From a virus (lineage: Duplodnaviria; Heunggongvirae; Uroviricota; Caudoviricetes), in IMG/VR virus record IMGVR_UViG_2619619133_000006, positions 1 through 24,197 of that record: a stretch of DNA of 24,197 bases; one strand, written 5' to 3'. The notes beneath the pieces are model-generated. The model ran no database searches. It was not told the origin of the DNA and saw only the letters and a program-made list of their open reading frames with translations. The translations under genes were made by a program, and so were the position numbers. This document shows positions 1 through 12,020 of the stretch, one piece after another; position 1 is the stretch's first letter, and every line of letters begins with the position of its first letter.

Positions 1-291
1 TCTCATTGCAGCCCCACGAATAGCATCGACCCCGATCAGCCCAACGCCGCCACCAATGGCAACAGAAAGAGATTTAGGCCATCCGACATACTCAAGAGCG
101 GATGCAAAAGTCAGCGTCAGAGCACCACAGAGCAAAATCTCGAGCGTTTTTCGTTTCCAGCCACCACCACCGCCAAAATAGGCAATGCGCAAGCCAGCCA
201 TAACGATCGACATAATCACTGCGCCCAGCGGTGTGTCTCCACGCCACCAGCTCTGGACCAACTCCAGCCAGGTATTTGGGTTATGAGGCAT
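1..291 (-). CDS. Holin, lambda S family (N-terminal 97 codons; 3' end beyond window start)
   Basis: Minus-strand ATG at 291-289; translation MPHNPNTWLELVQSWWRGDTPLGAVIMSIVMAGLRIAYFGGGGGWKRKTLEILLCGALTLTF... aligns in pattern with lambda S / P22 gp13 ([33 protein letters not shown]) as recalled. Hydrophobic segments; lies downstream of Q. Not in the ORF track because it runs off the edge. Confidence 0.55.
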   Translation of the reverse strand, partial: MPHNPNTWLELVQSWWRGDTPLGAVIMSIVMAGLRIAYFGGGGGWKRKTLEILLCGALTLTFASALEYVGWPKSLSVAIGGGVGLIGVDAIRGAAMR

Positions 292-745
292 TTGTAGTTA
301 TCTCTCACCTCGCCGATACAGGAGGTGCAAATTGAGGGAGTACCACGAACCGCAAACCAGAAGCGGAAACGTAAAAGAAGCCGAGCCAATGGATAAGTGC
401 TAGATAGACCAAGCCCAACGAATACCAAGGCCCAGAAATGACAAAACCCGCTCGACGGCAGGTTTAAGCTGTGTGGCGAAGTAACCACTCTTAACAGATT
501 ACACGATAAAATGCGGACCGCGTGAGGAAAACTATGGTTTTTTTGAAGCGAATGAGTAAAATCAACGCCACTTTGCACATAAGTTATCCACACTGTACGT
601 TTGCAAAATCTCATTGCTCTCTTTGAGTTTTGTAAATGCGCTAATTTTTGGACTTTTTTTGCCGATAGAATCTAACCACTTGTGTGGTAAGTTCTGAATG
701 AATGTTACCTCTTGGTTTGAAAATTCTTAACATAAGGACATCTGA

Positions 746-1741
746 ATGTTTGAGCAGCGTAAAGCCCTGTATGCGCAACTGGAACAAGCACGCAATTCAA
801 AAGTATTATGCTATGTAACAGGTGATAGACCAAACCAAGAAGCTCAAATCAGCGCTGATGTATTCGATCTGTTCGTCAATCATCTTGATGTGATAGGTGA
901 TGTTCAAAAAATTAGCCTCGTGCTCTATACGCGAGGCGGCGACACTTTAACAGCATGGAGCCTTGTAAACCTGCTTCGTCAGTTTTGTAAAGAACTCGAA
1001 ATCATAATCCCATCAAAATGCCATAGTTCTGGGACGATAATGTGCCTTGGCGCGAACAACTTGGTTATGACCAAGCAGGCAACCTTAGGGCCAATCGATC
1101 CAAGTGTGAATACACCACTTAACCCTTCGGCCATAATCAATGGGCAGCCACTTCAACTTCCAGTCAGTGTTGAAGAAATCAATGGCTATCTTGAAGTAGT
1201 TAAGCATGATTTGAGTATCAAAGATGATGCCTCACTTGCACAGATCCTCCTTGCATTAAGTGAAAAGGTTCATCCCTTGGTACTTGGAAAAGTCTATCGA
1301 GCTAAAGCGCAGATTCAAATGCTCGCAAGAAAACTACTGTCTCACCAACTCACTGATAGTGAAAGCATTGAGAAAATTGTAAGTTTCCTTTGTAGTGATT
1401 CTGGTAGCCATGACTACACTATAAATAGGATTGAAGCGGTAAACGATTTAGGTCTTACGGTGGAAAAACCAGATGAGCACCTTTACGGTCTGATCAAAGA
1501 AATTTATGAAGATTTCAAAACTGAGATGCATCTGGGTGAACCTTTTGACCCAAATGCTATCTTAGGAACAGTTAACCAGGCATCGTACGTATCTGTCAGA
1601 AGCATTTTAGAGGCTCCAGACACGTTTTCATATCAATTCCGCACTGAGGGGATGTTACAGCGTTTTCAAGTTCCAGGCGTCCCAGGTCAGTTCGGCATAA
1701 ATCATAACCTTATCTCAGAGGGGTGGGCTCGACATGGATAA
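746..1741 (+). CDS. SDH-family (serine dehydrogenase proteinase-like, ClpP/crotonase-fold) serine peptidase; accessory (moron) gene
   Basis: 331-aa ORF with AAGGA RBS 6 nt upstream. Motifs VLCYVTGDRPN, LVLYTRGGDTLTAW, HSSGTIMCLGA, LGPIDP match the SDH family as I recall it. Opposite strand to the flanking Q and holin genes, with non-coding flanks. Confidence 0.6.
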   Translation: MFEQRKALYAQLEQARNSKVLCYVTGDRPNQEAQISADVFDLFVNHLDVIGDVQKISLVLYTRGGDTLTAWSLVNLLRQFCKELEIIIPSKCHSSGTIMCLGANNLVMTKQATLGPIDPSVNTPLNPSAIINGQPLQLPVSVEEINGYLEVVKHDLSIKDDASLAQILLALSEKVHPLVLGKVYRAKAQIQMLARKLLSHQLTDSESIEKIVSFLCSDSGSHDYTINRIEAVNDLGLTVEKPDEHLYGLIKEIYEDFKTEMHLGEPFDPNAILGTVNQASYVSVRSILEAPDTFSYQFRTEGMLQRFQVPGVPGQFGINHNLISEGWARHG

Positions 1742-1910
1742 CAAATCATCTACAGGTAACTTTGTAGTCTATACTAACAGGCATACAACTACAGCTGCGC
1801 CTAAGCCAGCAAGCATTCCATCCACTGCTCAAAAAACAAGCAACAATGGCGTCAATGGCTACAGTAACTTTTTAAGTTGCACCACAGGTTCAGTCATAAA
1901 AAACAGTTTC

Positions 1911-1942
1911 TAAAAACAACGGCTCTCTAAGAGCCGTTGTTG
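1911..1942 (-). terminator. Intrinsic terminator hairpin immediately downstream of Q (possibly bidirectional)
   Basis: 10-bp perfect stem caacggctct / agagccgttg (1917-1926, 1930-1939), loop cta; on the minus strand followed by TTTTTAGAAACTGTTTTTT. Confidence 0.5.
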
Positions 1943-1945
1943 TAT

Positions 1946-2323
1946 CTATTCACATTCTAAACGTATATCGAGCATACTAAGGCAACCATCGATAAATCCC
2001 TCAGCCATCTGTATCTCAATGCGTATTAGTTTCTCATCCTTTTTACTAGCCTTGGCGAGCTTTCTTTTAGAGATACCGTATAGGTAATGGGCAACAAGAA
2101 GCGAATGTTCGTCCGGCCTTTTTTGCTTTAGACGAGCAAGACAACCTTCAATAATTAATGCATCACTATCTGAACAAGCCTGACGTGTTTTACTTGTATA
2201 GGGAAGAAGCCCTTTAAACCCAGCAGCTATAGGCGAATAATCTACTCCAGAACTATCACTCGCCGCCCATGCTCCCCAACGCTCCAGAACCATCTGAATA
2301 TCACGCATCAACTTTCTCCACAA
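1946..2323 (-). CDS. Late-gene antitermination protein Q-like (phage 82 / QuuD-type)
   Basis: 125-aa ORF; MRDIQMVLERWGAWAA... N-terminus and size recalled as typical of small Q antiterminators; canonical position upstream of the lysis genes. Confidence 0.55.
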   Translation of the reverse strand: MWRKLMRDIQMVLERWGAWAASDSSGVDYSPIAAGFKGLLPYTSKTRQACSDSDALIIEGCLARLKQKRPDEHSLLVAHYLYGISKRKLAKASKKDEKLIRIEIQMAEGFIDGCLSMLDIRLECE

Positions 2324-2325
2324 AA

Positions 2326-3321
2326 TCAGGCCAGCACACCAATCGCCAGCGCACGATCGATAAAACGAAATATCAGCTCCAGCTGGGAGCCATACTTCTC
2401 TTCAAATGCCACGGTATCCGCATGCAGCTCGTCGTGATGCTTTCTGCACAAAGGCAACACAAAAAGGTCATGCGCTTTTGTACCCATTCCACCCTGACCG
2501 TGGCCTATCAGGTGGTGGGGATCATCAGCGGGCTTTCCACAACATGCACACGGCTGCGTCTTAACCCAGCGCGTGTACTTTTCATTAACCCAGCGGCGAC
2601 GTTTTGGGCGTAACATAAAAGACTCCGGCGACTCCGGCTCCACTTTCAGCGCCAGCACCTTTTTCGCTTTATCCTGGATGATGCTGGTGGCAGGAACCGA
2701 AGGAACAAGATCACTTTCCCGGGTGACAGACGGCACAACAGGCTTCGGTAATCTCAGTGCCTTACGGGCTGCACTTTCCGGTAAGGCATCCGCCAGGTCA
2801 TTACGAACCAGCCACCAGCACAGTTCCGGCATTGTCACAACGTGACTGTCATCAAAACCGAGATCCCGACGCACGACAGACAACACCCAGCTGGCACAGT
2901 TATCCGTTGCCATTGATTCCAGCCGTTCCGTGAACTGATCGCGCAGCTGGTTATCGCAGTGCCAGCACAGACGGATTGCGCCCGGAGCGTGTCGCATTGT
3001 GGTCATGTTCTCGCTGTGCCAGTCGGAATGAGGCCACTGGCAGCCTTTTTCACGAAGTAACCAGCTTTCAAGACATTCCACGCCACCAGCACGACGGATC
3101 ACCGCCTCATTGCGGAACACAGCCCGAACGGCAGGATCATCCGCCAGTGGTTGTAATGCCGCCGGAACGGCACCACTGGAAAAAGATGAATAATGTTCCG
3201 GCTCAGGCTCCAGCAGGACACGCCCCTGCATAAACAGGGGCATCAGCTCTGAACCGGGTCTGAACAATACGATCCCCATACGCGGGGCAATTTCAGGGGT
3301 CAGTAGCGCTCTCACGGTCAC
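2326..3321 (-). CDS. DUF968-family prophage protein with C-terminal Cys/His cluster
   Basis: 331-aa ORF tightly packed between KilA-N and Q. C-terminus CACCGKPADDPHHLIGHGQGG...LCRKHHDELH suggests a zinc-binding HNH-like motif. Family assignment from memory. Confidence 0.5.
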   Translation of the reverse strand: MTVRALLTPEIAPRMGIVLFRPGSELMPLFMQGRVLLEPEPEHYSSFSSGAVPAALQPLADDPAVRAVFRNEAVIRRAGGVECLESWLLREKGCQWPHSDWHSENMTTMRHAPGAIRLCWHCDNQLRDQFTERLESMATDNCASWVLSVVRRDLGFDDSHVVTMPELCWWLVRNDLADALPESAARKALRLPKPVVPSVTRESDLVPSVPATSIIQDKAKKVLALKVEPESPESFMLRPKRRRWVNEKYTRWVKTQPCACCGKPADDPHHLIGHGQGGMGTKAHDLFVLPLCRKHHDELHADTVAFEEKYGSQLELIFRFIDRALAIGVLA

Positions 3322-3322
3322 C

Positions 3323-4126
3323 TCAATGAACGGTATCGAGCAGCTTTAACAGCTCAGGGAATCGGGATTCGAAGAAATGCGGCTGCGTCTCACGCGGATT
3401 TGCAGGACTGGTGATGTTCTTGCCGAACATGCAGCCTTTCGCCGTCAGCGACCAGAATTTTTTAATGTTGTTAATTGCGGTACGGCTGTATCGTTCGCGT
3501 TGTTCAACGATCCCCAGCTTCGCCATCTGGTGATATGCCTGATTAGCCGTCAGGCGGATACCATACTGCTTCAGCAGTGCACTCAGCGCCAGCGTCGGGC
3601 GGCTTGAGCCATCAGGCGCGTCAGCAGGAGCATCAATGGCATAGCGCGGTGCCAGATTCGGTAAGCCAACAGCCTCCTGGAGTTTCTGACAGGCACCAAG
3701 CACAGATGAGTTAGACAGGTTTAACTCCCGACGCATAAAGTCCAGCAGAATCACACCAGCCTGCATCTTGTCAGCAGCCTGCCCGGATAATTTTTCCGGT
3801 GCGCTGGTTACCATATCGAAAGTACGGATCACCTTCAGATGGAATGACGGGCTGATACACATTGCATAGGCATACACCAGTTCTTTGCAGACATACGTCC
3901 CCTGGTTATTTCCGCCACGAATAACGTTAACTGGCTCTATATTGACATTGACCGAGTTGCAAATCTGCAACTCGCTTATTAAACGTTCAGTTTGCTCATT
4001 GCGGAGCCAGAATGCAGGCTTATGCTTATCCAGAGAACCGGCAGCCCTGTGCAGATCGTTCAGGCTGTAACGCCCATAAGCATCACGACGAACTTCAATA
4101 CCATCAATAACCATCAGATTATTCAT
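3323..4126 (-). CDS. KilA-N domain protein (Roi/antirepressor-like)
   Basis: 267-aa ORF; N-terminus MNNLMVIDGIEVRRDAYGRYSLNDLHRAAGSLDKHKPAFWLRNEQTERLI fits the KilA-N/Bro-N signature. Confidence 0.55.
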   Translation of the reverse strand: MNNLMVIDGIEVRRDAYGRYSLNDLHRAAGSLDKHKPAFWLRNEQTERLISELQICNSVNVNIEPVNVIRGGNNQGTYVCKELVYAYAMCISPSFHLKVIRTFDMVTSAPEKLSGQAADKMQAGVILLDFMRRELNLSNSSVLGACQKLQEAVGLPNLAPRYAIDAPADAPDGSSRPTLALSALLKQYGIRLTANQAYHQMAKLGIVEQRERYSRTAINNIKKFWSLTAKGCMFGKNITSPANPRETQPHFFESRFPELLKLLDTVH

Positions 4127-4145
4127 ACTTCGTTTCTCCTCTTAA

Positions 4146-4330
4146 TCAGGCGGCTGCACCCGCCGGTTTCTCGTACTTACTGATAGTGATCTCGACCTTC
4201 CCTTCCGGGATAACCGGTCCCCACTCCACCAGCATTCTTTTCACCTGACTGTCGTCTTCCCACACACCCGCGTGGGTCAGGGCGTCAAACAGCGCCTTGT
4301 TATAGTTGTCCAGATCGCGGATCCGGTTAC
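4146..4330 (-). pseudogene. rusA: RusA-like Holliday-junction resolvase remnant (C-terminal part only, no start codon)
   Basis: Minus-strand frame translates to ..NRIRDLDNYNKALFDALTHAGVWEDDSQVKRMLVEWGPVIPEGKVEITISKYEKPAGAAA*, matching the RusA C-terminal half ([25 protein letters not shown]) as recalled. Frame is closed by TGA at 4370-4368; neither other frame encodes a RusA N-terminus. Confidence 0.5.
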
Positions 4331-4944
4331 AGGGCGATGATTTTTTTCCAGAGCCACTGTGCGCAGGTCAAATCATCCTGCGTTCCCCACTGGCGCTTTT
4401 TAGGGCTGAATACAACCGCATCAGGATGGCGAGTTAAAAAATCCTGTTCATCCGTCTGCGTGTCCGGTTGCGAAGCGTCCGGACGAGAAGTTTTTTTATC
4501 TGACGGATCATGTTTTGATTTTACTGACGGATCCCCGCCAGATTCTGACGGGTGAAAACCCGCTTTTTTGCCAGATTTCGACGCATCAAATTTTGACGGG
4601 TCAGATTTTGATGCGTCAGATTTTGACGGGTCAGAATCTGACAGTTGAGAAAATGCCGCTGCCTGAAGCTTCGCAACGTTAAGCTGATAAACATTCGACG
4701 CATTGCGGTTACCCTGGCGACGCGCCTTACGCGTTAACCAGCCTTCTGCTTCCAGCCGTGCGATAGCCGTTCTGACGGTACTCATCCCCGCGCCAATCTG
4801 GCGGGCAATGGTTTCAATTGATGGCCAGCACACACCTTCGTCATTACTGAAATCAGCCAGGCGGGCCATAACTGCCACGCTGGATAATTTCATGCCTGAT
4901 GCAGCGCAACCATCCCATACATAGCCGGTTAATTTAGTGCTCAT
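4327..4944 (-). CDS. Replication initiator-like protein (N-terminal winged HTH, repeat-rich linker), possibly C-terminally truncated
   Basis: 205-aa ORF; N-terminus VAVMARLADFSNDEGVCWPSIETIARQIGAGMSTVRTAIARLEAEGWL resembles the HTH of phage O-type initiators; central DPSKSDASKSDPSKFDASKS repeats; no helicase-loader gene follows. Confidence 0.5.
   Translation of the reverse strand: MSTKLTGYVWDGCAASGMKLSSVAVMARLADFSNDEGVCWPSIETIARQIGAGMSTVRTAIARLEAEGWLTRKARRQGNRNASNVYQLNVAKLQAAAFSQLSDSDPSKSDASKSDPSKFDASKSGKKAGFHPSESGGDPSVKSKHDPSDKKTSRPDASQPDTQTDEQDFLTRHPDAVVFSPKKRQWGTQDDLTCAQWLWKKIIAL
4498..4644. repeat. About 7 tandem 15-bp repeats (consensus GATTTTGACGGGTCA) inside the replication gene; candidate origin iterons
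   Basis: Copies at about 4517, 4541, 4575, 4589, 4604, 4619, 4634. Period 15 bp (5 codons), so also a peptide repeat. Confidence 0.6.
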
Positions 4945-5155
4945 GACCGACCTCTATTTCCCTGAATTTACGACGAAACTGTTCGAGCGGGCTGAAGCAC
5001 TCATGCTCATAGCCTTCGCGGAGGTAGATAACCCGTTGTGTTTCCGGCTCCCAACGAATGACTCTGACGGGCACTCCGTAGTGATCTTTGAACCAGCGGT
5101 TAACTTGTCGCAAAGGACTGTCTCCTTCTGCCGGTTGAAATCCCCCACAGCCCAC
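4934..5155 (-). CDS. Alternative/overlapping ORF, 73 aa, protein-like
   Basis: [51 protein letters not shown] looks like a folded domain; its stop overlaps the start of the replication gene. May be the C-terminal part of a frameshifted gene with 4954-5292. Confidence 0.3.
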
Positions 5156-5292
5156 TCTGCAAAGCTGTGGGTTACAATTTCCCTGTCACCTGGTACATTC
5201 ACTGCATAGCAATACTCCACCTTCGCTTTTCCACCCGGTACAGGAAGCGCAATCAGTTGCGAGCGACGGTAGTGTGTTGTTAAACTGTTCAT
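4954..5292 (-). CDS. Hypothetical early-region protein (overlaps an alternative frame; possibly frameshifted)
   Basis: Start ATG overlaps the upstream stop as ATGA (5292-5289), suggesting coupling. The N-terminal half looks protein-like; the C-terminal half is low-complexity. Confidence 0.3.
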
Positions 5293-5840
5293 GCGTTAGT
5301 TTCTCCACAGTCACGACACGCCACGGCGCCCGGAGCTGCACACTCGCGGGCGTCATTACTTTCTGAAATGCAAAAAATTTTGTAGACCAGTGCTGCATGC
5401 TCCTGCAGCTTCGAAATTGAGAGGTACAGCTCATCGTTAATTGCTGTCTTCTCATGCGGTTCCACTACACCGTCTTCAATTGCTGAACGAATCTGTTTTG
5501 AATAACTGCCGATCTGTTCAATGACTTCCAGCAGACGTTGGTTGATATCGGCGTTGTCCACATCCTCGACATCAGGAAGAGACACAAAGACGCCATTTGC
5601 AGACTGCGCCACAGCGTCAGCAATGAAGTGAGTTCCACCAGCACGTTGTAAAATCATTGCCCATCCCAGCGGGAAAATTTGATCGCCATCGGCACGAAGG
5701 CGATTAAATAATGCGTTCTCTGTTACATCCAGCCAGTCAGCTGCTTCAGCGTAACCCCCCGGCAACGCTGCGATAGTTTTTCTGACAGCTTTCACGTACC
5801 ACTCAGGCTGTTTTTCTACTTTCCAGTGATGCTTACCCAC
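5289..5840 (-). CDS. Hypothetical early regulatory protein (in the CII/YdaT position)
   Basis: 183-aa ORF directly downstream of the Cro-like gene with an overlapping start. Assignment by position only. Confidence 0.4.
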
Positions 5841-6093
5841 GGTTCACCTCCTGTTCCTGTGGTTTAAACCCATTCTGGTTTTGGCTAGATTGAAAACGTG
5901 CCGGATAAAGAATCTGCATTTCGCTGACTTCACCCTTAAAAAAATTGGCTAAACGTTCTGCAAGCTCGATAGATGGAATCTGCTCCAGCCTCTCAATACG
6001 ACTCAACGTCGCTGGATTGACTTGAACACCCGCAGCAACATGCTGCAAAGTGAAACCATGCGCCTTACGCACATTTCGTAATGGTGATTGCAT
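5833..6093 (-). CDS. Cro-like HTH (XRE-family) regulator
   Basis: 86-aa ORF divergent from the repressor gene; HTH segment HGFTLQHVAAGVQVNPATLSRIERLEQIPSIELAERLANFF; GGAGGG RBS upstream. Confidence 0.6.
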   Translation of the reverse strand: MQSPLRNVRKAHGFTLQHVAAGVQVNPATLSRIERLEQIPSIELAERLANFFKGEVSEMQILYPARFQSSQNQNGFKPQEQEVNRG

Positions 6094-6107
6094 ACGCCCT
6101 CCAAATA

Positions 6108-6170
6108 TTGCGCGTTATGCATGTTATTTCACGCAATTATTTTGCGCAAGTTGATTTGCTTATCACGCAA
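6108..6170. promoter_or_regulatory. Right operator region (OR-like) between cro-like and cI-like genes
   Basis: TTGC-N7-GCAA at 6156-6170 (perfect), TTGC-N7-GCAT at 6108-6122, palindrome TTGCGCAA at 6142-6149; lies in the 97-bp divergent intergenic region. Confidence 0.45.
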
Positions 6171-6190
6171 TAAAGAAATGTAATAAACGC

Positions 6191-6883
6191 ATGAACATAG
6201 GAAACCGAGTCAGACAACTTCGCCAAGCGAAGAACATGAAAATCGCCGATCTCGCTGAAGCAATAGGAGTAGATGCGGCGAACATCTCGCGCTTAGAAAC
6301 GGGTAAGCAAAAACAATTTACCGAACAAACACTGAGTAATATTGCCAAGAGCTTAGGTGTTGATATTGCTGATCTCTTTACCTCTGCCCACAAAAGTAAT
6401 ACTGTATATAAAAACAGTAATGATGAGGATGTTGCGCAGGTGAAGGATGTGTTCCGTATTGAAATGCTGGATATCAGTGCCAGTGCGGGAAATGGCCTTA
6501 TCCAGGGCGGTGATGTCATTGATGTGATTCATGCCATCGAATACAGAACTGATAATGCTGTATCAATGTTCGGCGGACGACCAGCCAATCACATCAAAGT
6601 TATCAACGTTCGTGGGGACAGTATGTGTCCAACCATTGAGCCAGGAGATCTCATCTTCGTTGATGTCAGCATCAATCAGTTTGATGGTGATGGTATATAT
6701 GTCTTTGGTTTTGATGACAAAATATACGTTAAAAGACTTCAAATGATTCCTGACAAACTGCTGGTGATTTCTGATAACCAGATTTACCGTGAATGGGGAA
6801 TTACTAGCGAAAACGAACACCGATTCATGGTCTTTGGAAAGGTCTTAATCAGTCAGTCGCAAACCCTTAAGAGACATAATTAA
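6191..6883 (+). CDS. CI-like prophage repressor (N-terminal XRE HTH plus C-terminal S24 LexA-like autopeptidase)
   Basis: 230-aa ORF; HTH IADLAEAIGVDAANISRLETGKQ; S24 motifs GDSMCPTIEPGDLIFVD and IYVKRL (Ser/Lys dyad); divergent from the cro-like gene. Confidence 0.8.
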   Translation: MNIGNRVRQLRQAKNMKIADLAEAIGVDAANISRLETGKQKQFTEQTLSNIAKSLGVDIADLFTSAHKSNTVYKNSNDEDVAQVKDVFRIEMLDISASAGNGLIQGGDVIDVIHAIEYRTDNAVSMFGGRPANHIKVINVRGDSMCPTIEPGDLIFVDVSINQFDGDGIYVFGFDDKIYVKRLQMIPDKLLVISDNQIYREWGITSENEHRFMVFGKVLISQSQTLKRHN

Positions 6884-6901
6884 CCTCAATATCCTTCCAT
6901 C

Positions 6902-6923
6902 GGCCACCGAAAGGTGGCTTTTT
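6902..6923 (+). terminator. Intrinsic terminator after the repressor gene
   Basis: Stem ggccacc / ggtggc with GAAA loop, followed by TTTTT. Confidence 0.6.
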
Positions 6924-6936
6924 ATTACCTATCAAT

Positions 6937-6973
6937 TTGCATATTCCGCAAATATCACTTGCATATCTCGCAA
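6937..6973. promoter_or_regulatory. Left operator region (OL-like): two TTGC-N7-GCAA sites
   Basis: Perfect TTGC-N7-GCAA at 6937-6951 and 6959-6973, centres 22 bp apart; same core as the OR sites. Confidence 0.45.
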
Positions 6974-7159
6974 TTTAATTTTATCTTTTGTTCCAGACCA
7001 ACTACAGGATTACAACAAAATCTGGTTGCAACACGGTGCATGTGTCGTAAGCAGTCAGTAAATGTCAAAAACGAACAGGCAGGACGCCCACGAAGTAGCC
7101 GCCTGGGGCATATGAAGTCCAGGATGATTCGTTGAGTCATGTTGTGCCACTAGGCACTC

Positions 7160-7456
7160 ATGTTAAAGCAGGTGTATGAAATGAAAGTCCAGATTTTAAA
7201 CAATAACTGTGAAGTCGTTTGGTCATACGACATAGCCGCCCCTGTAGATCAGAGCGGCGATAGCTGGACCAATGGGAAACATCAGATTATGGCTGGAGTT
7301 GTGTTCTCTTTACGCCGTGCTTTGGAACAGGCTGAAGTATTTCCATCAGACCCTGAATGGAAATGGCCTTTTTCTATTTGTCCAAATTCGGAGAGTACAT
7401 TTCAGAAAATTGGTCAGAAAGTCGCACTCGAAGAGCATCAGCCAACTGTTTCCTGA
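7160..7456 (+). CDS. Hypothetical protein (early-left region)
   Basis: 98-aa ORF downstream of the putative OL/pL; no recognisable motif. Confidence 0.3.
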   Translation: MLKQVYEMKVQILNNNCEVVWSYDIAAPVDQSGDSWTNGKHQIMAGVVFSLRRALEQAEVFPSDPEWKWPFSICPNSESTFQKIGQKVALEEHQPTVS

Positions 7457-7873
7457 TTTTTTCAGGTAACTCGTCGGCATCGCAGAAACAACAACGCTCG
7501 ATCATGTTGAAAGCCGATTCGTAGAACTGTTTCTGCTGAGTGTCGCTGAGACAGGAAAAGAGCGACGTTACGATGATTTTATTAATGCATTATCAAGTTC
7601 TTTTTCATCAAAAGTCATTTGATTTTCCTTTTATGTATACGGGCTTAAAAGGATACCACCGAGCCTGAAGTGGTGAAAAGACAGGCACATAACAGCTAAG
7701 TATTTTCAACCAAAGAGAATCCTTAGCGTTGTGGTGAATGCGGCTCAGCGCACGCGGGTTAAGGTTGAGGCTGACAGTCGACCTTCTGTAGATACCCACC
7801 CGCCTGGTGTGCAACCTTCGCCAGGCACCGGGAGGCACCCGGCACCACAACTTTATGCTGTGTGTAGTCCTGG

Positions 7874-7919
7874 CGGTACCAGTTTGTACCCTTGCTTCCG
7901 GCTGGTACCGTTCTTTTTA
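7874..7919 (+). terminator. Terminator-like hairpin (9-bp stem, large loop) followed by TTCTTTTT
   Basis: cggtaccag (7874-7882) pairs with ctggtaccg (7902-7910), then a T-rich run. The 19-nt loop makes this uncertain. Confidence 0.3.
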
Positions 7920-8007
7920 CAAAACAGAGAAGAGCATCACCGGACGACGGGCTCATAAACCAATCCATCCGGGCGGCTGCCACCGCAGGTGTTCTTCTCT
8001 GTTTTGT
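7919..8007. repeat. Long inverted repeat (15-bp perfect arms, 55-nt spacer) just upstream of the yfdP-like gene
   Basis: acaaaacagagaaga (7919-7933) is the exact reverse complement of tcttctctgttttgt (7993-8007). Confidence 0.6.
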
Positions 8008-8055
8008 GGAGAAACTAATCGGCCTTGCAGGGTCGATATGATGAGGAGCAGCAAA

Positions 8056-8418
8056 ATGGCTAGCGAACGCAGTACTGATGTGCAGGCATTTATCGGGGAG
8101 CTGGACGGCGGCGTATTTGAAACCAAAATCGGCGCAGTTCTCAGTGAAGTCGCTTCCGGTGTGATGAACACGAAAACCAAAGGTAAGGTCTCACTCAACC
8201 TGGAAATCGAACCATTTGATGAGAACCGTGTGAAAATCAAACACAAACTCTCATATGTTCGCCCGACTAACCGCGGGAAAATTTCCGAAGAAGACACCAC
8301 CGAAACGCCGATGTATGTCAATCGCGGTGGTCGCCTGACTATTCTGCAGGAAGACCAGGGACAGTTACTGACTCTTGCCGGTGAACCTGACGGAAAACTC
8401 CGCGCAGCAGGTCGTTAA
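8056..8418 (+). CDS. yfdP: YfdP-like prophage protein
   Basis: 120-aa product from the ATG at 8056 with AGGAG RBS; the track ORF 7807-8418 extends upstream through non-protein-like sequence. Length and position before the yfdQ-like gene match CPS-53 as recalled. Confidence 0.45.
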   Translation: MASERSTDVQAFIGELDGGVFETKIGAVLSEVASGVMNTKTKGKVSLNLEIEPFDENRVKIKHKLSYVRPTNRGKISEEDTTETPMYVNRGGRLTILQEDQGQLLTLAGEPDGKLRAAGR

Positions 8419-8483
8419 TATCGTTCTTAATTAACTGATTATTTATCTCATCACTGAATATCTTTATATAGTGAGGACTTATT

Positions 8484-9308
8484 ATGTCTCAGAACTTAGA
8501 CGCAACCGCAATTAATCAAATCCATGCCCTTATTTCTGCTCAGGGTGTTAATGAAATTATCAGTAAGATTGGTGCCGATGCTGTGGCATTGCCTGAGAAT
8601 TTCCGCATTCATGATCTGGAAAAATTTAATTTAAATCGCTTCCGTTTCCGTGGTGCGCTTTCCACTGCCAGCATCGATGACTTTACCCGTTATTCTAAAG
8701 ATCTTGCAGATGAAGGCACCCGCTGCTTTATCGATGCTGATAATATGCGTGCCGTCAGTGTGCTTAACCTGGGTACTATTGATGAACCAGGTCACGCAGA
8801 TAACACCGCCACACTCAAACTGAAAAAGACAGCACCGTTCTCTGCTCTGTTGACTGTTAACGGCGAGCGTAACTCCCAGAAGTCACTGGCAGAATGGATT
8901 GAAGACTGGGCCGACTATCTTGTGGGCTTTGATGCTAATGGTGACGCTATTCAGGCAACAAAAGCGGCTGCGGCTGTCCGTAAAATCACGATTGAAGCAA
9001 ACCATACCGCTGATTTTGAAGATAATGACTTCAGCGGCAAACGCTCCCTGATGGAGTCTGTCGAAGCGAAGACCAAAGACATTATGCCAGTGGCATTTGA
9101 ATTTAAATGCATTCCGTTTGAAGGTCTGAAAGAACGTCCGTTTAAATTACGCCTCAGCATTATCACTGGCGATCGTCCGGTACTGGTTCTGCGCATTATT
9201 CAGCTGGAGGCGGTGCAGGAAGAAATGGCTAACGAATTTCGTGATCTGCTTGTTGAGAAATTCAAGGACAGCAAAGTAGAAACCTTTATTGGTACTTTCA
9301 CCGCCTGA
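8484..9308 (+). CDS. yfdQ: YfdQ-like DUF2303 protein
   Basis: 274-aa ORF; same size and neighbourhood as CPS-53 yfdQ, from memory. Confidence 0.55.
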
Positions 9309-9320
9309 TTTCATTACTGC

Positions 9321-9342
9321 AAATGCCCCTGCGGGGGCATTT
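9321..9342 (+). other. Perfect 9-bp stem-loop between the yfdQ-like and yfdR-like genes
   Basis: aaatgcccc-tgcg-ggggcattt; no clear U-tract, so possibly an attenuator or mRNA-stability element rather than a terminator. Confidence 0.35.
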
Positions 9343-9435
9343 ATGGAAACGTAATTTACTCAATAATCGCCGGATGGTGAGGGATTCTTTTTACCAGAAT
9401 TCAGCGCGGTGCAGCGCATATACGTGGAGAACAAA

Positions 9436-9972
9436 ATGTCATTTATTAAAACTTTTTCCGGGAAGCATTTTTATTATGACAGGATAAATAAAGACGACAT
9501 CGATATTAACGATATCGCGGTTTCCCTTTCAAATATCTGTCGCTTTGCCGGTCATCTTTCGCACTTCTACAGCGTCGCCCAACATGCGGTTCTTTGCAGC
9601 CAGCTGGTGCCGCAGGAATTTGCTTTTGAAGCGTTAATGCATGATGCAACAGAAGCGTATTGCCAGGACATTCCCGCACCACTGAAACGCCTTCTTCCTG
9701 ACTATAAACAAATGGAAGAAAAAATAGACGCCGTAATCCGTGAGAAATACGGGTTACCCCCGGTTATGAGTACGCCCGTGAAATATGCCGATCTCATCAT
9801 GCTGGCAACCGAACGCCGCGATCTCGGGCTTGATGATGGCTCTTTCTGGCCTGTACTGGAAGGTATCCCGGCAACAGAGATGTTCAACGTGATTCCACTG
9901 GCACCGGGCCATGCCTACGGGATGTTTATGGAACGCTTTAACGAGTTATCGGAGTTACGCAAATGCGCATGA
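9436..9972 (+). CDS. yfdR: YfdR-like HD-domain phosphohydrolase (5'-deoxynucleotidase family)
   Basis: 178-aa product from the internal ATG with GGAGAA RBS; His/Asp-containing motifs (CRFAGHLSHFYSVAQH, LMHDATEAYCQDIP) are consistent with an HD-domain fold. Confidence 0.55.
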   Translation: MSFIKTFSGKHFYYDRINKDDIDINDIAVSLSNICRFAGHLSHFYSVAQHAVLCSQLVPQEFAFEALMHDATEAYCQDIPAPLKRLLPDYKQMEEKIDAVIREKYGLPPVMSTPVKYADLIMLATERRDLGLDDGSFWPVLEGIPATEMFNVIPLAPGHAYGMFMERFNELSELRKCA

Positions 9973-10325
9973 ATGTTTTCGAAATGGAAGGGTTTCTTCG
10001 TGGGAGATGTGTACCGCGAGATCTGAAAGTAAATGAAACAGATGCTGAATACCTGGTGCGTAAATTCGATGCGCTTGAAGCTAAATGTGCAGCACAGGAA
10101 AACAAAGTAATACCAGTGTCAACTGAACTGCCACCAGCAAATGAAAGTGTTTTGTTATTCGATGCTAACGGAGAAGGCTGGCTAATTGGCTGGCGTTCTC
10201 TCTGGTACACCTGGGGACAAAAAGAAACCGGAGAATGGCAGTGGACATTTCAGGTCGGGGACCTTGAAAACGTCAATATCACTCACTGGGCAGTAATGCC
10301 AAAAGCACCGGAGGCTGGAGCATAA
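9963..10325 (+). CDS. yfdS: YfdS-like protein
   Basis: 120-aa ORF overlapping the upstream stop; size and order as in yfdQRST. Confidence 0.45.
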   Translation: MRMNVFEMEGFLRGRCVPRDLKVNETDAEYLVRKFDALEAKCAAQENKVIPVSTELPPANESVLLFDANGEGWLIGWRSLWYTWGQKETGEWQWTFQVGDLENVNITHWAVMPKAPEAGA

Positions 10326-10630
10326 TGACCACTTTTACCGACAAAGAACTGATTAAAGAAATTAAAGAGCGTATCAGCAGCCTTGACGTGCGAGACGATA
10401 TTGAGCGCCGTGCTTATGAAATCGCACTCCTATCTCTGGAAGTAGAACCAGATGAACGCGAAGCTTATGAATTATTCATGGAAAAGCGTTTCGGTGACTT
10501 AGTAGATCGTCGGAGAGCAAAAAACGGCGATAACGAATACATGGCATGGGATATGACTCTCGGTTGGATCGTCTGGCAGCAACGAGCTGGTATCCATTTT
10601 TCAACAATGTCACAGCAAGAGGTGAAATAA
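10325..10630 (+). CDS. yfdT: YfdT-like protein
   Basis: 101-aa ORF; start overlaps the upstream stop (TAATG). Confidence 0.45.
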   Translation: MTTFTDKELIKEIKERISSLDVRDDIERRAYEIALLSLEVEPDEREAYELFMEKRFGDLVDRRRAKNGDNEYMAWDMTLGWIVWQQRAGIHFSTMSQQEVK

Positions 10631-10980
10631 TGGAGCCATACAGCCTCACACTCGATGAGGCCTGTCATTTTCTCAAGATATCCAGACCGACTGCCATTAA
10701 CTGGATACGCACAGGGCGTCTTCAGGCAACACGCAAAGATCCCACTAAGAATAAATCTCCTTACCTCACAACACGACAAGCCTGCATTGCGGCGCTTCAG
10801 TCTCCGCTGCATACTGTCCAGGTGAGCGCGGGTGATGGCATAACAGAGGAAAGAAAATGTCACTCTTCCGCAGAGGTGAAATATGGTACGCCAGTTTCAC
10901 ATTGCCGAACGGTAAAAGATTTAAACAGTCTCTTGGAACAAAGGACAAAAGGCAGGCGACAGAACTCCATGACAAGCTAA
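10630..10980 (+). CDS. Excisionase-like (Xis/AlpA-type HTH) protein; C-terminal extension overlaps int
   Basis: Starts at the ATG overlapping the upstream stop; N-terminus [33 protein letters not shown] is Xis-like and sits immediately upstream of int. The last ~40 codons overlap int and look non-protein-like. Confidence 0.4.
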
Positions 10981-12020
10981 AGGCTGAAGCATGGCGGGGC
11001 AGCAAACTTGGTGAAATACCTGATATAACGTTCGAGGAAGCGTGTGTCAGGTGGCTTGAAGAGAAAGCACATAAAAAATCACTGGACGATGACAAAAGCC
11101 GGATCGGATTCTGGCTTCAACATTTCGCAGGAATGCAACTAAGAGACATTACTGAATCAAAAATTTATTCAGCAATGCAGAAAATGACGAACCGGCGTCA
11201 TGAGGAAAACTGGAAACTCAGGGCAGAAGCATGCAGAAAAAAAGGGAAACCTGTTCCAGAATACACGCCAAAACCAGCGTCCGTTGCAACGAAGGCTACG
11301 CATCTTTCATTTATAAAGGCCCTACTAAGAGCCGCAGAGCGTGAATGGAAAATGCTGGATAAGGCACCAATTATTAAAGTGCCTCAACCAAAGAATAAAC
11401 GGATCCGCTGGCTGGAGCCCCATGAAGCACAAAGGCTGATTGATGAATGTCCGGAGCCATTAAAGTCTGTTGTTGAATTTGCACTGGCAACAGGCTTAAG
11501 ACGCTCGAACATCATCAACCTTGAATGGCAACAAATAGATATGCAGCGCCGGGTGGCATGGATAAACCCAGAAGAGAGTAAATCAAACCGCGCAATCGGC
11601 GTTGCGCTGAATGATACTGCATGTCGCGTTTTGAAAAAACAAATCGGGAATCATCACCGTTGGGTATTTGTGTACAAGGAAAGCTGTACCAAACCAGACG
11701 GAACGAAAGCGCCAACAGTAAGGAAGATGCGGTATGACGCAAACACAGCCTGGAAAGCGGCGCTGAGACGGGCTGGTATTGATGATTTCAGATTTCACGA
11801 CTTGAGACACACCTGGGCAAGTTGGCTGGTTCAAGCCGGAGTCCCGTTGTCAGTGTTACAGGAAATGGGAGGCTGGGAGTCTATCGAAATGGTTCGTCGA
11901 TATGCTCACCTTGCACCTAATCACCTTACCGAACACGCACGGCAAATAGACTCGATCCTGAACCCATCGGTCCCAAATTTGTCCCAGTCAAAAAATAAGG
12001 AAGGTACTAATGATGTGTAA
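10857..12020 (+). CDS. int: Tyrosine integrase, P22 Int / DLP12 IntD type
   Basis: 387-aa ORF; N-terminus [34 protein letters not shown] recalled as the P22/DLP12 integrase family; catalytic motifs [11 protein letters not shown] and MVRRYAHL; 10 bp from the tRNA-Thr core. Confidence 0.85.

What the first reader, a model, noticed from the sequence alone, without database searches (positions are those of the whole stretch)
4146..4370. Deletion scar: rusA C-terminal remnant fused out of frame behind a truncated replication gene, next to an A7 homopolymer
The RusA-like frame has no start codon and no N-terminal half in any frame, and no helicase-loader or nin genes separate the replication gene from the KilA-N gene. 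A deletion probably removed the P/nin region, making the prophage replication-defective. A +1 shift at the A7 run (4339-4346) would fuse the two frames, so an assembly indel should be excluded.
Basis: seen in the sequence. Interest (0 to 1): 0.45.

Follow-up and report, generated by a model that had tools for sequence, protein, structure and literature searches.

The report
Deletion scar in a prophage
A single deletion of about 2 kb in an SfII/CPS-53-like E. coli prophage cut off the end of its replication-initiator gene and the front of its rusA gene; this is ordinary prophage decay, not an assembly error or a new kind of element.

Summary
The window is an E. coli draft contig (GCA_000700245.1) carrying an SfII/mEp460/CPS-53-like lambdoid prophage, with the early-right operon on the minus strand. 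Intact relatives, including the phage SfII, read O-like initiator (313 aa) – yfdN (PerC) – dam – LexA-DBD gene – rusA (129 aa) – kilA-N. In the window, O codon 205 is joined to rusA codon 70 at a 2-nt TA microhomology (4328-4329). This removes 1,996 bp relative to the closest intact relative (99.9% identical on the left arm), or 1,346 bp relative to dam-less relatives. The junction itself creates the TAA stop of the 205-aa O fragment. The 60-codon rusA remnant (4146-4328) is in another frame and has no start codon. The A7 run (really 4341-4347) is native: all 16 loci checked and 120 viral contigs have A7. The junction recurs in a second isolate assembly and in an independent reassembly of reads, so it is real. 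It is also rare: 0 of 5,426 complete E. coli genomes have it. The intact phages have no P or helicase-loader gene either. Loss of the conserved O C-terminal domain probably makes the prophage replication-defective, but that is an inference. Low interest.

The parts
4327..4944 (-). Truncated O-like replication-initiator gene: native codons 1-205, then a TAA stop (4329-4327) created by the deletion junction (Tyr206 TAC became TAA).
   Evidence: ORF. It is 98.5% identical to residues 1-205 of the 313-aa intact protein. HTH_36 at residues 22-70. The intact protein matches phrog_391 'replication initiation O-like' over its full length, E 9e-136.
4328..4329 (.). Deletion junction: a 2-nt TA microhomology shared by both parental sequences.
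   Evidence: Homology to the rusA side runs up to 4329 and homology to the O side starts at 4328, in comparisons with L001, L002, L015 (SfII) and L138.
4146..4328 (-). rusA remnant: codons 70-129 plus a TGA stop. It has no start codon and lies +1 relative to the O frame, so it is presumed untranslated.
4341..4347 (.). A7 run (T7 on the plus strand) inside the O-like gene, covering codons Lys200-Lys201 and the first base of Ile202. It is native sequence, not part of the scar.
   Evidence: A7 in all 16 loci examined, intact or deleted. The exact 27-mer containing it is in at least 120 viral contigs.
4501..4646 (.). Iteron-like repeats with a 15-nt period (consensus CAGATTTTGACGGGT) inside the O-like gene. 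This is the probable origin and it is retained.
   Evidence: TRF finds 4.3 copies at 4572-4635. The repeat families extend to 4501-4646. The ori role is inferred by analogy with lambda ori inside O.
3323..4126 (-). kilA-N gene, the first intact gene downstream of the scar. It keeps its own Shine-Dalgarno sequence (AAGAGGAG, about 4133-4140).
   Evidence: PF04383, E 6.6e-25. Sequence read.

Best explanation
One illegitimate-recombination deletion occurred in the early-right operon of an SfII/mEp460/CPS-53-like lambdoid prophage of E. coli. The ancestor read cro - cII(ymfL) - ymfM/DUF4222 - O-like initiator (313 aa) - yfdN - dam - LexA-DBD gene - rusA - kilA-N - DUF968 - Q. A join at a TA dinucleotide removed 1,996 bp (1,346 bp if the ancestor lacked dam). 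It runs from O codon 206 to rusA codon 69. Because the length is not a multiple of 3, the two halves are out of frame, and the junction itself forms the stop codon of a 205-aa O fragment. That fragment keeps the N-terminal winged-helix domain and the iteron-bearing linker. It keeps only about 34 of the roughly 133 residues of the conserved C-terminal domain. The rusA fragment is silent. kilA-N, DUF968 and Q stay in the operon with their own signals. Shown here: the deletion, its exact endpoints, its content and its reality. Inferred: the O fragment cannot assemble a replisome, so the prophage cannot replicate after induction unless a co-resident phage supplies O. Also inferred: RusA, YfdN, Dam and the LexA-DBD protein functions are lost.
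For: The junction was mapped identically against four intact relatives. The left arm (window 1-4329) is 99.88% identical to E. coli QDFD216 and stops exactly at 4329. QDFD216 has the full rusA - LexA-DBD - dam - yfdN - O series, giving a deletion of 1,996 bp. Phage SfII has the same intact order and no P gene. The deleted parts are absent from the whole window. The same 60-nt junction is present in GCA_000700425.1 (L004; IMG/VR L137) and in the Logan reassembly of SRR1186636 (L005). L004 is identical to the window over 3966-7789 but 2-3% diverged to the left of 3965, so the allele has outlived a recombination event. The deleted O tail alone matches the C-terminal parts of O-like, DnaD-like helicase-loader and replisome-organizer PHROGs (E 8e-48 to 2e-12). 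Every other prophage gene shared with the close relative L002 is full length (the holin up to the contig end) and 87-100% identical, so this is the only lesion seen.
Against: Nothing contradicts the deletion itself. The functional consequence is untested. No structure or experiment shows what the C-terminal domain of this O-like protein does, and it has no Pfam family. The rest of the prophage (lysis and structural genes) lies off the contig. The ancestor's dam status, and hence the deletion size, is inferred from the closest relative.
Confidence: 0.95

Rival explanations
1. Assembly artefact: a wrong homopolymer length at the A7 run, or a misjoin between two prophages, creates an apparent truncation.
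For: Homopolymers are error-prone. One Logan protein (P0002, 232 aa) is a frameshift at this same run in an otherwise intact gene. The window comes from a short-read draft assembly.
Against: The run is A7 in all 16 loci and in 120 viral contigs. The missing 1.3-2.0 kb cannot be explained by a 1-nt indel. A 2-nt overlap is far too short for a de Bruijn-graph misjoin. The junction was recovered in two NCBI assemblies and one independent reassembly of reads.
Confidence: 0.02
2. Native short arrangement: some phages of this group naturally carry a 205-aa initiator followed directly by kilA-N.
For: phrog_11896 ('primosomal protein', 225 positions) aligns to residues 1-203 only. So short N-terminal versions are annotated in some phage genomes.
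Against: None of 5,426 complete E. coli genomes spans the junction. Neither do GTDB species representatives or JGI metagenome contigs. Only one IMG/VR contig does, and it matches the window exactly as L004 does (identical alignment, 107 mismatches), so it is probably the same genome (inferred). A startless 60-codon rusA tail with 98% identity to full-length rusA is a remnant, not a gene.
Confidence: 0.01
3. The deletion is real but functionally tolerated or selected. The O(1-205) fragment, which still has the ori-binding domain and the iterons, is kept as an origin-binding protein. It could interfere with replication of superinfecting or co-resident phages of the same ori type, or lock the prophage in place while Q-dependent genes and cargo stay expressible.
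For: The fragment ends cleanly at the junction with no foreign tail. The allele persisted through recombination into a second left-arm background. An independent TAC->TAG nonsense mutation at the same codon 206 exists in a metagenome scaffold whose downstream genes are all intact (L007). All neighbouring genes are intact.
Against: Only two isolates carry it, and they are identical around the scar, so selection cannot be tested. L007 was found by an exact 205-aa look-up, which selects for that end point. Random decay explains everything seen.
Confidence: 0.07
4. A nin5-like deletion: it removes transcription terminators between the replication genes and Q, making late-gene expression independent of antitermination.
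For: The position is analogous to the lambda nin region, between the replication genes and Q (my own knowledge of lambda).
Against: The consensus scan finds no terminator-like site on the sense (minus) strand within the deleted segment of the intact relative. All seven sites found are antisense, and their number is within the range seen in shuffled sequence.
Confidence: 0.03

Closest known systems
E. coli K-12 cryptic prophage e14, ymfN (oweE'-'aaaE chimera)
   Same: It has the same gene neighbourhood (ymfK/cI - ymfT/cro - ymfL - ymfM - O-like gene). An internal deletion also truncates the O-like initiator and joins it to a fragment of a downstream gene.
   Different: In e14 only 78 O codons remain. 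The partner is a terminase fragment, and the fusion is annotated as one chimeric ORF. Here 205 codons remain, the partner is rusA, and the join is out of frame with a stop at the junction.
E. coli K-12 cryptic prophage CPS-53 (KpLE1), yfdO-yfdN-yfdM
   Same: It belongs to the same phage family. Window 4328-4711 is 99.2% identical and 8037-10683 is 96.7% identical to CPS-53. Its O-like gene is also truncated by a deletion.
   Different: The pattern is partly reciprocal. CPS-53 lacks window 4712-8036 (the O N-terminus, cII, cro, cI) but keeps the O C-terminus (yfdO), yfdN and a dam remnant, which are the genes missing here.
Shigella phage SfII (KC736978) and relatives SfIV, mEp460, PhiR29_1
   Same: SfII shows the same gene order and is 97-99% identical in DNA on both sides of the scar. 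It serves as the intact reference.
   Different: These phages carry the full O (313 aa), PerC-family gene, dam, LexA-DBD gene and rusA (129 aa).
Lambda nin5 deletion
   Same: It is a deletion of the non-essential block between the replication genes and Q.
   Different: By my own knowledge, nin5 spares O and P and removes terminators. This deletion truncates the initiator, and no sense-strand terminator is predicted in the lost segment.

Membership tests
RusA Holliday-junction resolvase (PF05866) | Sequence homology to the family profile | tested here: met
   E 1.7e-11, but only profile positions 79-123 of 124 are matched. 98% identical to residues 70-129 of an intact 129-aa RusA.
RusA Holliday-junction resolvase (PF05866) | Complete, translatable gene of about 120-130 aa that includes the N-terminal half | tested here: not met
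   There is no start codon in the open stretch, and the N-terminal 69 codons are absent in all six frames of the window. It is a pseudogene fragment, not a functional member.
Lambda-O-like replication initiator (phrog_391) | N-terminal winged-helix DNA-binding domain | tested here: met
   HTH_36 at residues 22-70, E 1.8e-11.
Lambda-O-like replication initiator (phrog_391) | Iterons (origin) embedded in the gene | tested here: met
   15-nt periodic repeats at 4501-4646. Binding and origin function are not testable here.
Lambda-O-like replication initiator (phrog_391) | Conserved C-terminal domain (profile positions about 207-298) | tested here: not met
   The gene stops after residue 205. Residues 206-313 are absent from the window.
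Defective (cryptic) prophage carrying an internal deletion | Loss of sequence relative to functional phages of the same type | tested here: met
   1,996 bp are missing relative to QDFD216 and L002, about 1,994 bp relative to phage SfII, and 1,346 bp relative to L001.
Defective (cryptic) prophage carrying an internal deletion | Inability to replicate or to produce phage | not testable with these tools
   This needs induction experiments. The lysis and structural genes lie off the contig.
nin5-type terminator deletion | The deleted segment contains sense-strand terminators upstream of Q | tested here: not met
   No minus-strand terminator-like site in L002 10340-12330. This is a consensus scan only, and Rho-dependent sites are not covered.

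The most novel reading that the evidence does not exclude
The 205-aa O fragment (ori-binding domain plus iterons, ending cleanly at the junction) is not junk. It would be a retained origin-binding protein that blocks or titrates replication of incoming or co-resident SfII-type phages with the same ori specificity. That would be a replication-level exclusion function created by prophage decay. The persistence of the allele across a recombination event, and an independent stop at the same codon in L007, do not exclude this.
Probability: 0.05. Interest if true: 0.35.

Novelty: new member of a known kind. Interest (0 to 1): 0.1.

Why it matters
It matters little beyond correct annotation. The locus should be annotated as two pseudogene fragments (O' and 'rusA), not as a 'GntR-family regulator' plus a 39-aa ORF, which is how the source names and calls them. 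It gives a precisely mapped example of microhomology-mediated prophage decay hitting the initiator gene, the same gene that is truncated in the K-12 cryptic prophages e14 and CPS-53. It also shows that phages of this family have no separate helicase-loader gene in this block (shown for SfII), so its absence here is not a sign of decay.

Tried and rejected
(1) I searched for the junction elsewhere. It was found in 0 of 5,426 complete E. coli genomes, 0 GTDB representative genomes, 0 JGI metagenome contigs and 1 IMG/VR contig, which matches the window exactly as the second isolate's contig L004 does and is probably the same genome.

(2) I suspected a recombination or mosaic hot spot at codon 205, because 8 contigs from other assemblies end within 0-2 nt of it and L007 has a stop at codon 206. 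Scans for any allele that continues with something other than TAC after ...GCCCTG found only the deletion allele in IMG/VR and nothing in JGI metagenomes. All 120 viral contigs continue with TACGA. The clustering is best explained by the exact-sequence look-up selecting that end point. Partial proteins of 188 and 198 aa are similarly recurrent.

(3) The nin5-like terminator-removal idea got no support from the scan.

(4) I looked for a family or structure for the lost O C-terminal domain. Pfam gave nothing even at E 10. NCBIfam gave nothing. PDB sequence search matched only the N-terminal winged helix. Only PHROG names bear on it.

(5) Rfam found no RNA family in the window, and there are no tRNAs.

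(6) One literature search found nothing specific to this gene block.

(7) A cluster look-up of the KilA-N proteins, made to learn the second strain's name, was uninformative.

(8) I did not run structure prediction or the large protein searches, because the answer did not depend on them.

Full report
**What is in the window**

Window 1-10944 is 100% identical to the first 10.9 kb of JNMH01000015.1 (GCA_000700245.1). The collection names the source of the 205-aa protein, for at least one of its two accessions, as Escherichia coli 3-373-03_S3_C3. Positions 1 to about 12,050 carry the early and immunity region of a lambdoid prophage.

- On the minus strand: a partial holin at the contig end, Q (1946-2323), DUF968 (2326-3321), KilA-N (3323-4126), the feature in question, the O-like gene (4327-4944), the YmfM-like and DUF4222 ORFs, cII/YmfL (5289-5840) and cro (5833-6093).
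- On the plus strand: an SDH-family protease gene (746-1741), cI (6191-6883), yfdP-yfdQ-yfdR-yfdS-yfdT and the integrase (10857-12020).
- These assignments rest.
- The closest named relatives are Shigella phages SfII and SfIV, coliphage mEp460, and the K-12 cryptic prophages CPS-53 and e14.

**Checking the observation**

- The minus-strand frame 4328->4149 reads NRIRDLDNYNKALFDALTHAGVWEDDSQVKRMLVEWGPVIPEGKVEITISKYEKPAGAAA, then stops at TGA 4148-4146.
- It matches only the last third of the Pfam RusA profile (positions 79-123 of 124, E 1.7e-11).
- It is 98% identical to residues 70-129 of an intact 129-aa RusA.
- Upstream, the frame is open for just 13 codons (PAHSGSGKKSSPC), and none of them is a start codon. 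The only start is an internal GTG that gives a 39-aa ORF.
- The replication gene encodes 205 aa. Its intact homologues are 313 aa.
- tblastn finds no trace of O 206-313, YfdN, Dam, the LexA-DBD protein or RusA 1-69 anywhere in the 24-kb window.
- The homopolymer is at 4341-4347, which is T7 on the plus strand.

**Mapping the deletion**

I compared the window with four intact relatives: L001 (strain muskdeer13-4), L002 (VTB97584v), L015 (phage SfII) and L138 (QDFD216).

- In every comparison, homology on the rusA side runs up to window 4329 and homology on the O side begins at 4328. The junction is therefore a 2-nt TA microhomology.
- The left arm (window 1-4329) is 99.88% identical to QDFD216 and stops exactly at 4329. 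QDFD216 then carries the rest of rusA, a 108-aa LexA-DNA-binding-domain gene, dam, yfdN (PerC family) and the 3' 324 nt of the O-like gene. That is 1,996 bp missing from the window.
- Relative to dam-less relatives, the gap is 1,346 bp.
- Neither length is a multiple of three, which explains the frame difference.
- On the coding strand the join reads ...GCC CTG TA|A CCG GAT.... Tyr206 (TAC) has become TAA, so the O fragment consists of native residues 1-205 with no foreign tail.

**The A7 run**

Losing one A, or a +1 slip of tRNA-Lys, would join the O frame to the rusA frame.
- But the run is native sequence 12 nt from the junction.
- It is A7 in all 16 loci examined, both intact and deleted. 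The exact 27-mer containing it occurs in at least 120 IMG/VR contigs.
- An indel there could only produce an O(1-201)-SSPC-RusA(70-129) chimera. It could never restore rusA.

**Is the junction real?**

- The same 60-nt junction is present in a second isolate assembly (GCA_000700425.1, L004). An IMG/VR contig (L137) also has it, but its alignment to the window is the same as L004's, so it is probably the same genome.
- It is also present in the Logan reassembly of run SRR1186636 (L005). That contig is 100% identical to window 4304-5268, which includes the A7 run.
- L004 is identical to the window from 3966 to 7789. Left of 3965 it is 2-3% diverged and carries different cargo genes. The deletion allele has therefore persisted through at least one recombination event.
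- It is nevertheless rare. None of 5,426 complete E. coli genomes has it, nor do the GTDB species representatives or JGI metagenome contigs.

**What the deletion probably does**

- Shown: the O fragment keeps the HTH_36 winged-helix region (residues 22-70).
- Shown: it keeps the repetitive linker, whose DNA carries 15-nt iteron-like repeats at 4501-4646.
- Shown: the deleted tail on its own matches the C-terminal parts of several PHROGs. These are phrog_391 'replication initiation O-like' (E 8e-48), phrog_2514 'DnaD-like helicase loader' (E 4e-24) and phrog_4880 'replisome organizer' (E 2e-12).
- Shown: profile boundaries place this conserved domain at about residues 172-304, so the truncation leaves only about 34 of its residues.
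- Shown: in SfII no separate P, DnaC or helicase gene lies between cII and Q. The missing loader gene is therefore not a result of the deletion.
- Inferred, by analogy with lambda O (N-terminal domain binds the iterons, C-terminal domain recruits the helicase-loading machinery; my own knowledge): the fragment can still bind the origin but cannot start replication. The prophage would then be replication-defective unless an O protein is supplied in trans.
- kilA-N keeps its Shine-Dalgarno sequence, and DUF968 and Q are intact. Read-through transcription towards Q should therefore remain possible.
- No sense-strand terminator is predicted in the lost segment, so a nin5-like effect is not supported.
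- Every other gene this part of the prophage shares with the close relative L002 is full length (the holin as far as the contig end). Identity is 98-100%, except 87% for the mosaic KilA-N. The deletion is the only lesion visible.

**Comparison with what is known**

This is ordinary prophage decay. E. coli K-12 offers two direct precedents in the same phage group.

- e14 ymfN is an O' fragment of 78 codons fused by deletion to a terminase fragment.
- CPS-53 keeps the opposite half of the gene (yfdO) together with yfdN and a dam remnant. It has lost the O N-terminus and the immunity region.

The present allele is a new, precisely mapped instance of that kind.

**Verdict**

- Three corrections apply: what was lost, the position of the A-run, and the irrelevance of an A-run indel.
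- The functional consequence is plausible but untested.
- Interest is low.

Noticed in passing
window 4934-5292 (minus strand): Two overlapping ORFs in different frames each have family support. One is a 112-aa YmfM-like ORF (4954-5292; phrog_1170, E 1.7e-70; K-12 e14 ymfM is annotated 'cell division inhibitor'). The other is a 59-aa DUF4222 ORF (about 4934-5113; PF13973), which is the one PGAP annotates in relatives. Which is expressed, or whether both are, was not resolved.
   Followed up: partly
window 4501-4646: Iteron-like repeats with a 15-nt period (consensus CAGATTTTGACGGGT) lie inside the O-like gene, next to an A/T-rich stretch at about 4485-4520. This is probably the phage origin. 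The repeats also encode the repetitive SDxSKSD linker of the protein.
   Followed up: partly
window 12140 to about 20700: A second integrated element lies directly after the prophage integrase. It has its own 444-aa integrase, a Dit-like tail protein, a 613-aa ORF with no Pfam hit, a major capsid protein E homologue and a 229-aa HTH_36 protein. It is common in E. coli at 94-96% identity. It may be a phage satellite or PICI-like island.
   Followed up: no
L007 2886-2888 (ENA metagenome scaffold ROBE23-1...scaffold_607): An independent TAC->TAG nonsense mutation sits at the same codon 206 of the O-like gene. yfdN, dam, the LexA-DBD gene, rusA and kilA-N are all intact downstream.
   Followed up: partly
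L006, L008-L014 (contig ends): Eight contigs from unrelated assemblies end 0-2 nt after codon 205 of the O-like gene. No alternative allele diverging at that point was found in IMG/VR or JGI metagenomes. This is most likely a selection effect of the exact-sequence look-up, plus a repeat boundary nearby.
   Followed up: yes
protein P0002 (Logan, 232 aa): This is a frameshift at the same A7 run in an otherwise intact O-like gene (WKK followed by a +1-frame tail). The run is therefore an indel or error hot spot in other assemblies, though not in this one.
   Followed up: no
window 7133-7656: This is a variable segment between cI and yfdP. The window has 523 nt with a 98-aa ORF (7160-7456). The close relative L002 has 771 nt there, encoding a 68-aa hypothetical protein and an ECs1072-family protein.
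   Followed up: no
window 746-1741 (plus strand): A cargo gene lies between Q and the holin. It encodes an SDH-family Clp-fold serine protease (331 aa). The second deletion-bearing strain (L004) has two unrelated ORFs at that position instead.
   Followed up: no
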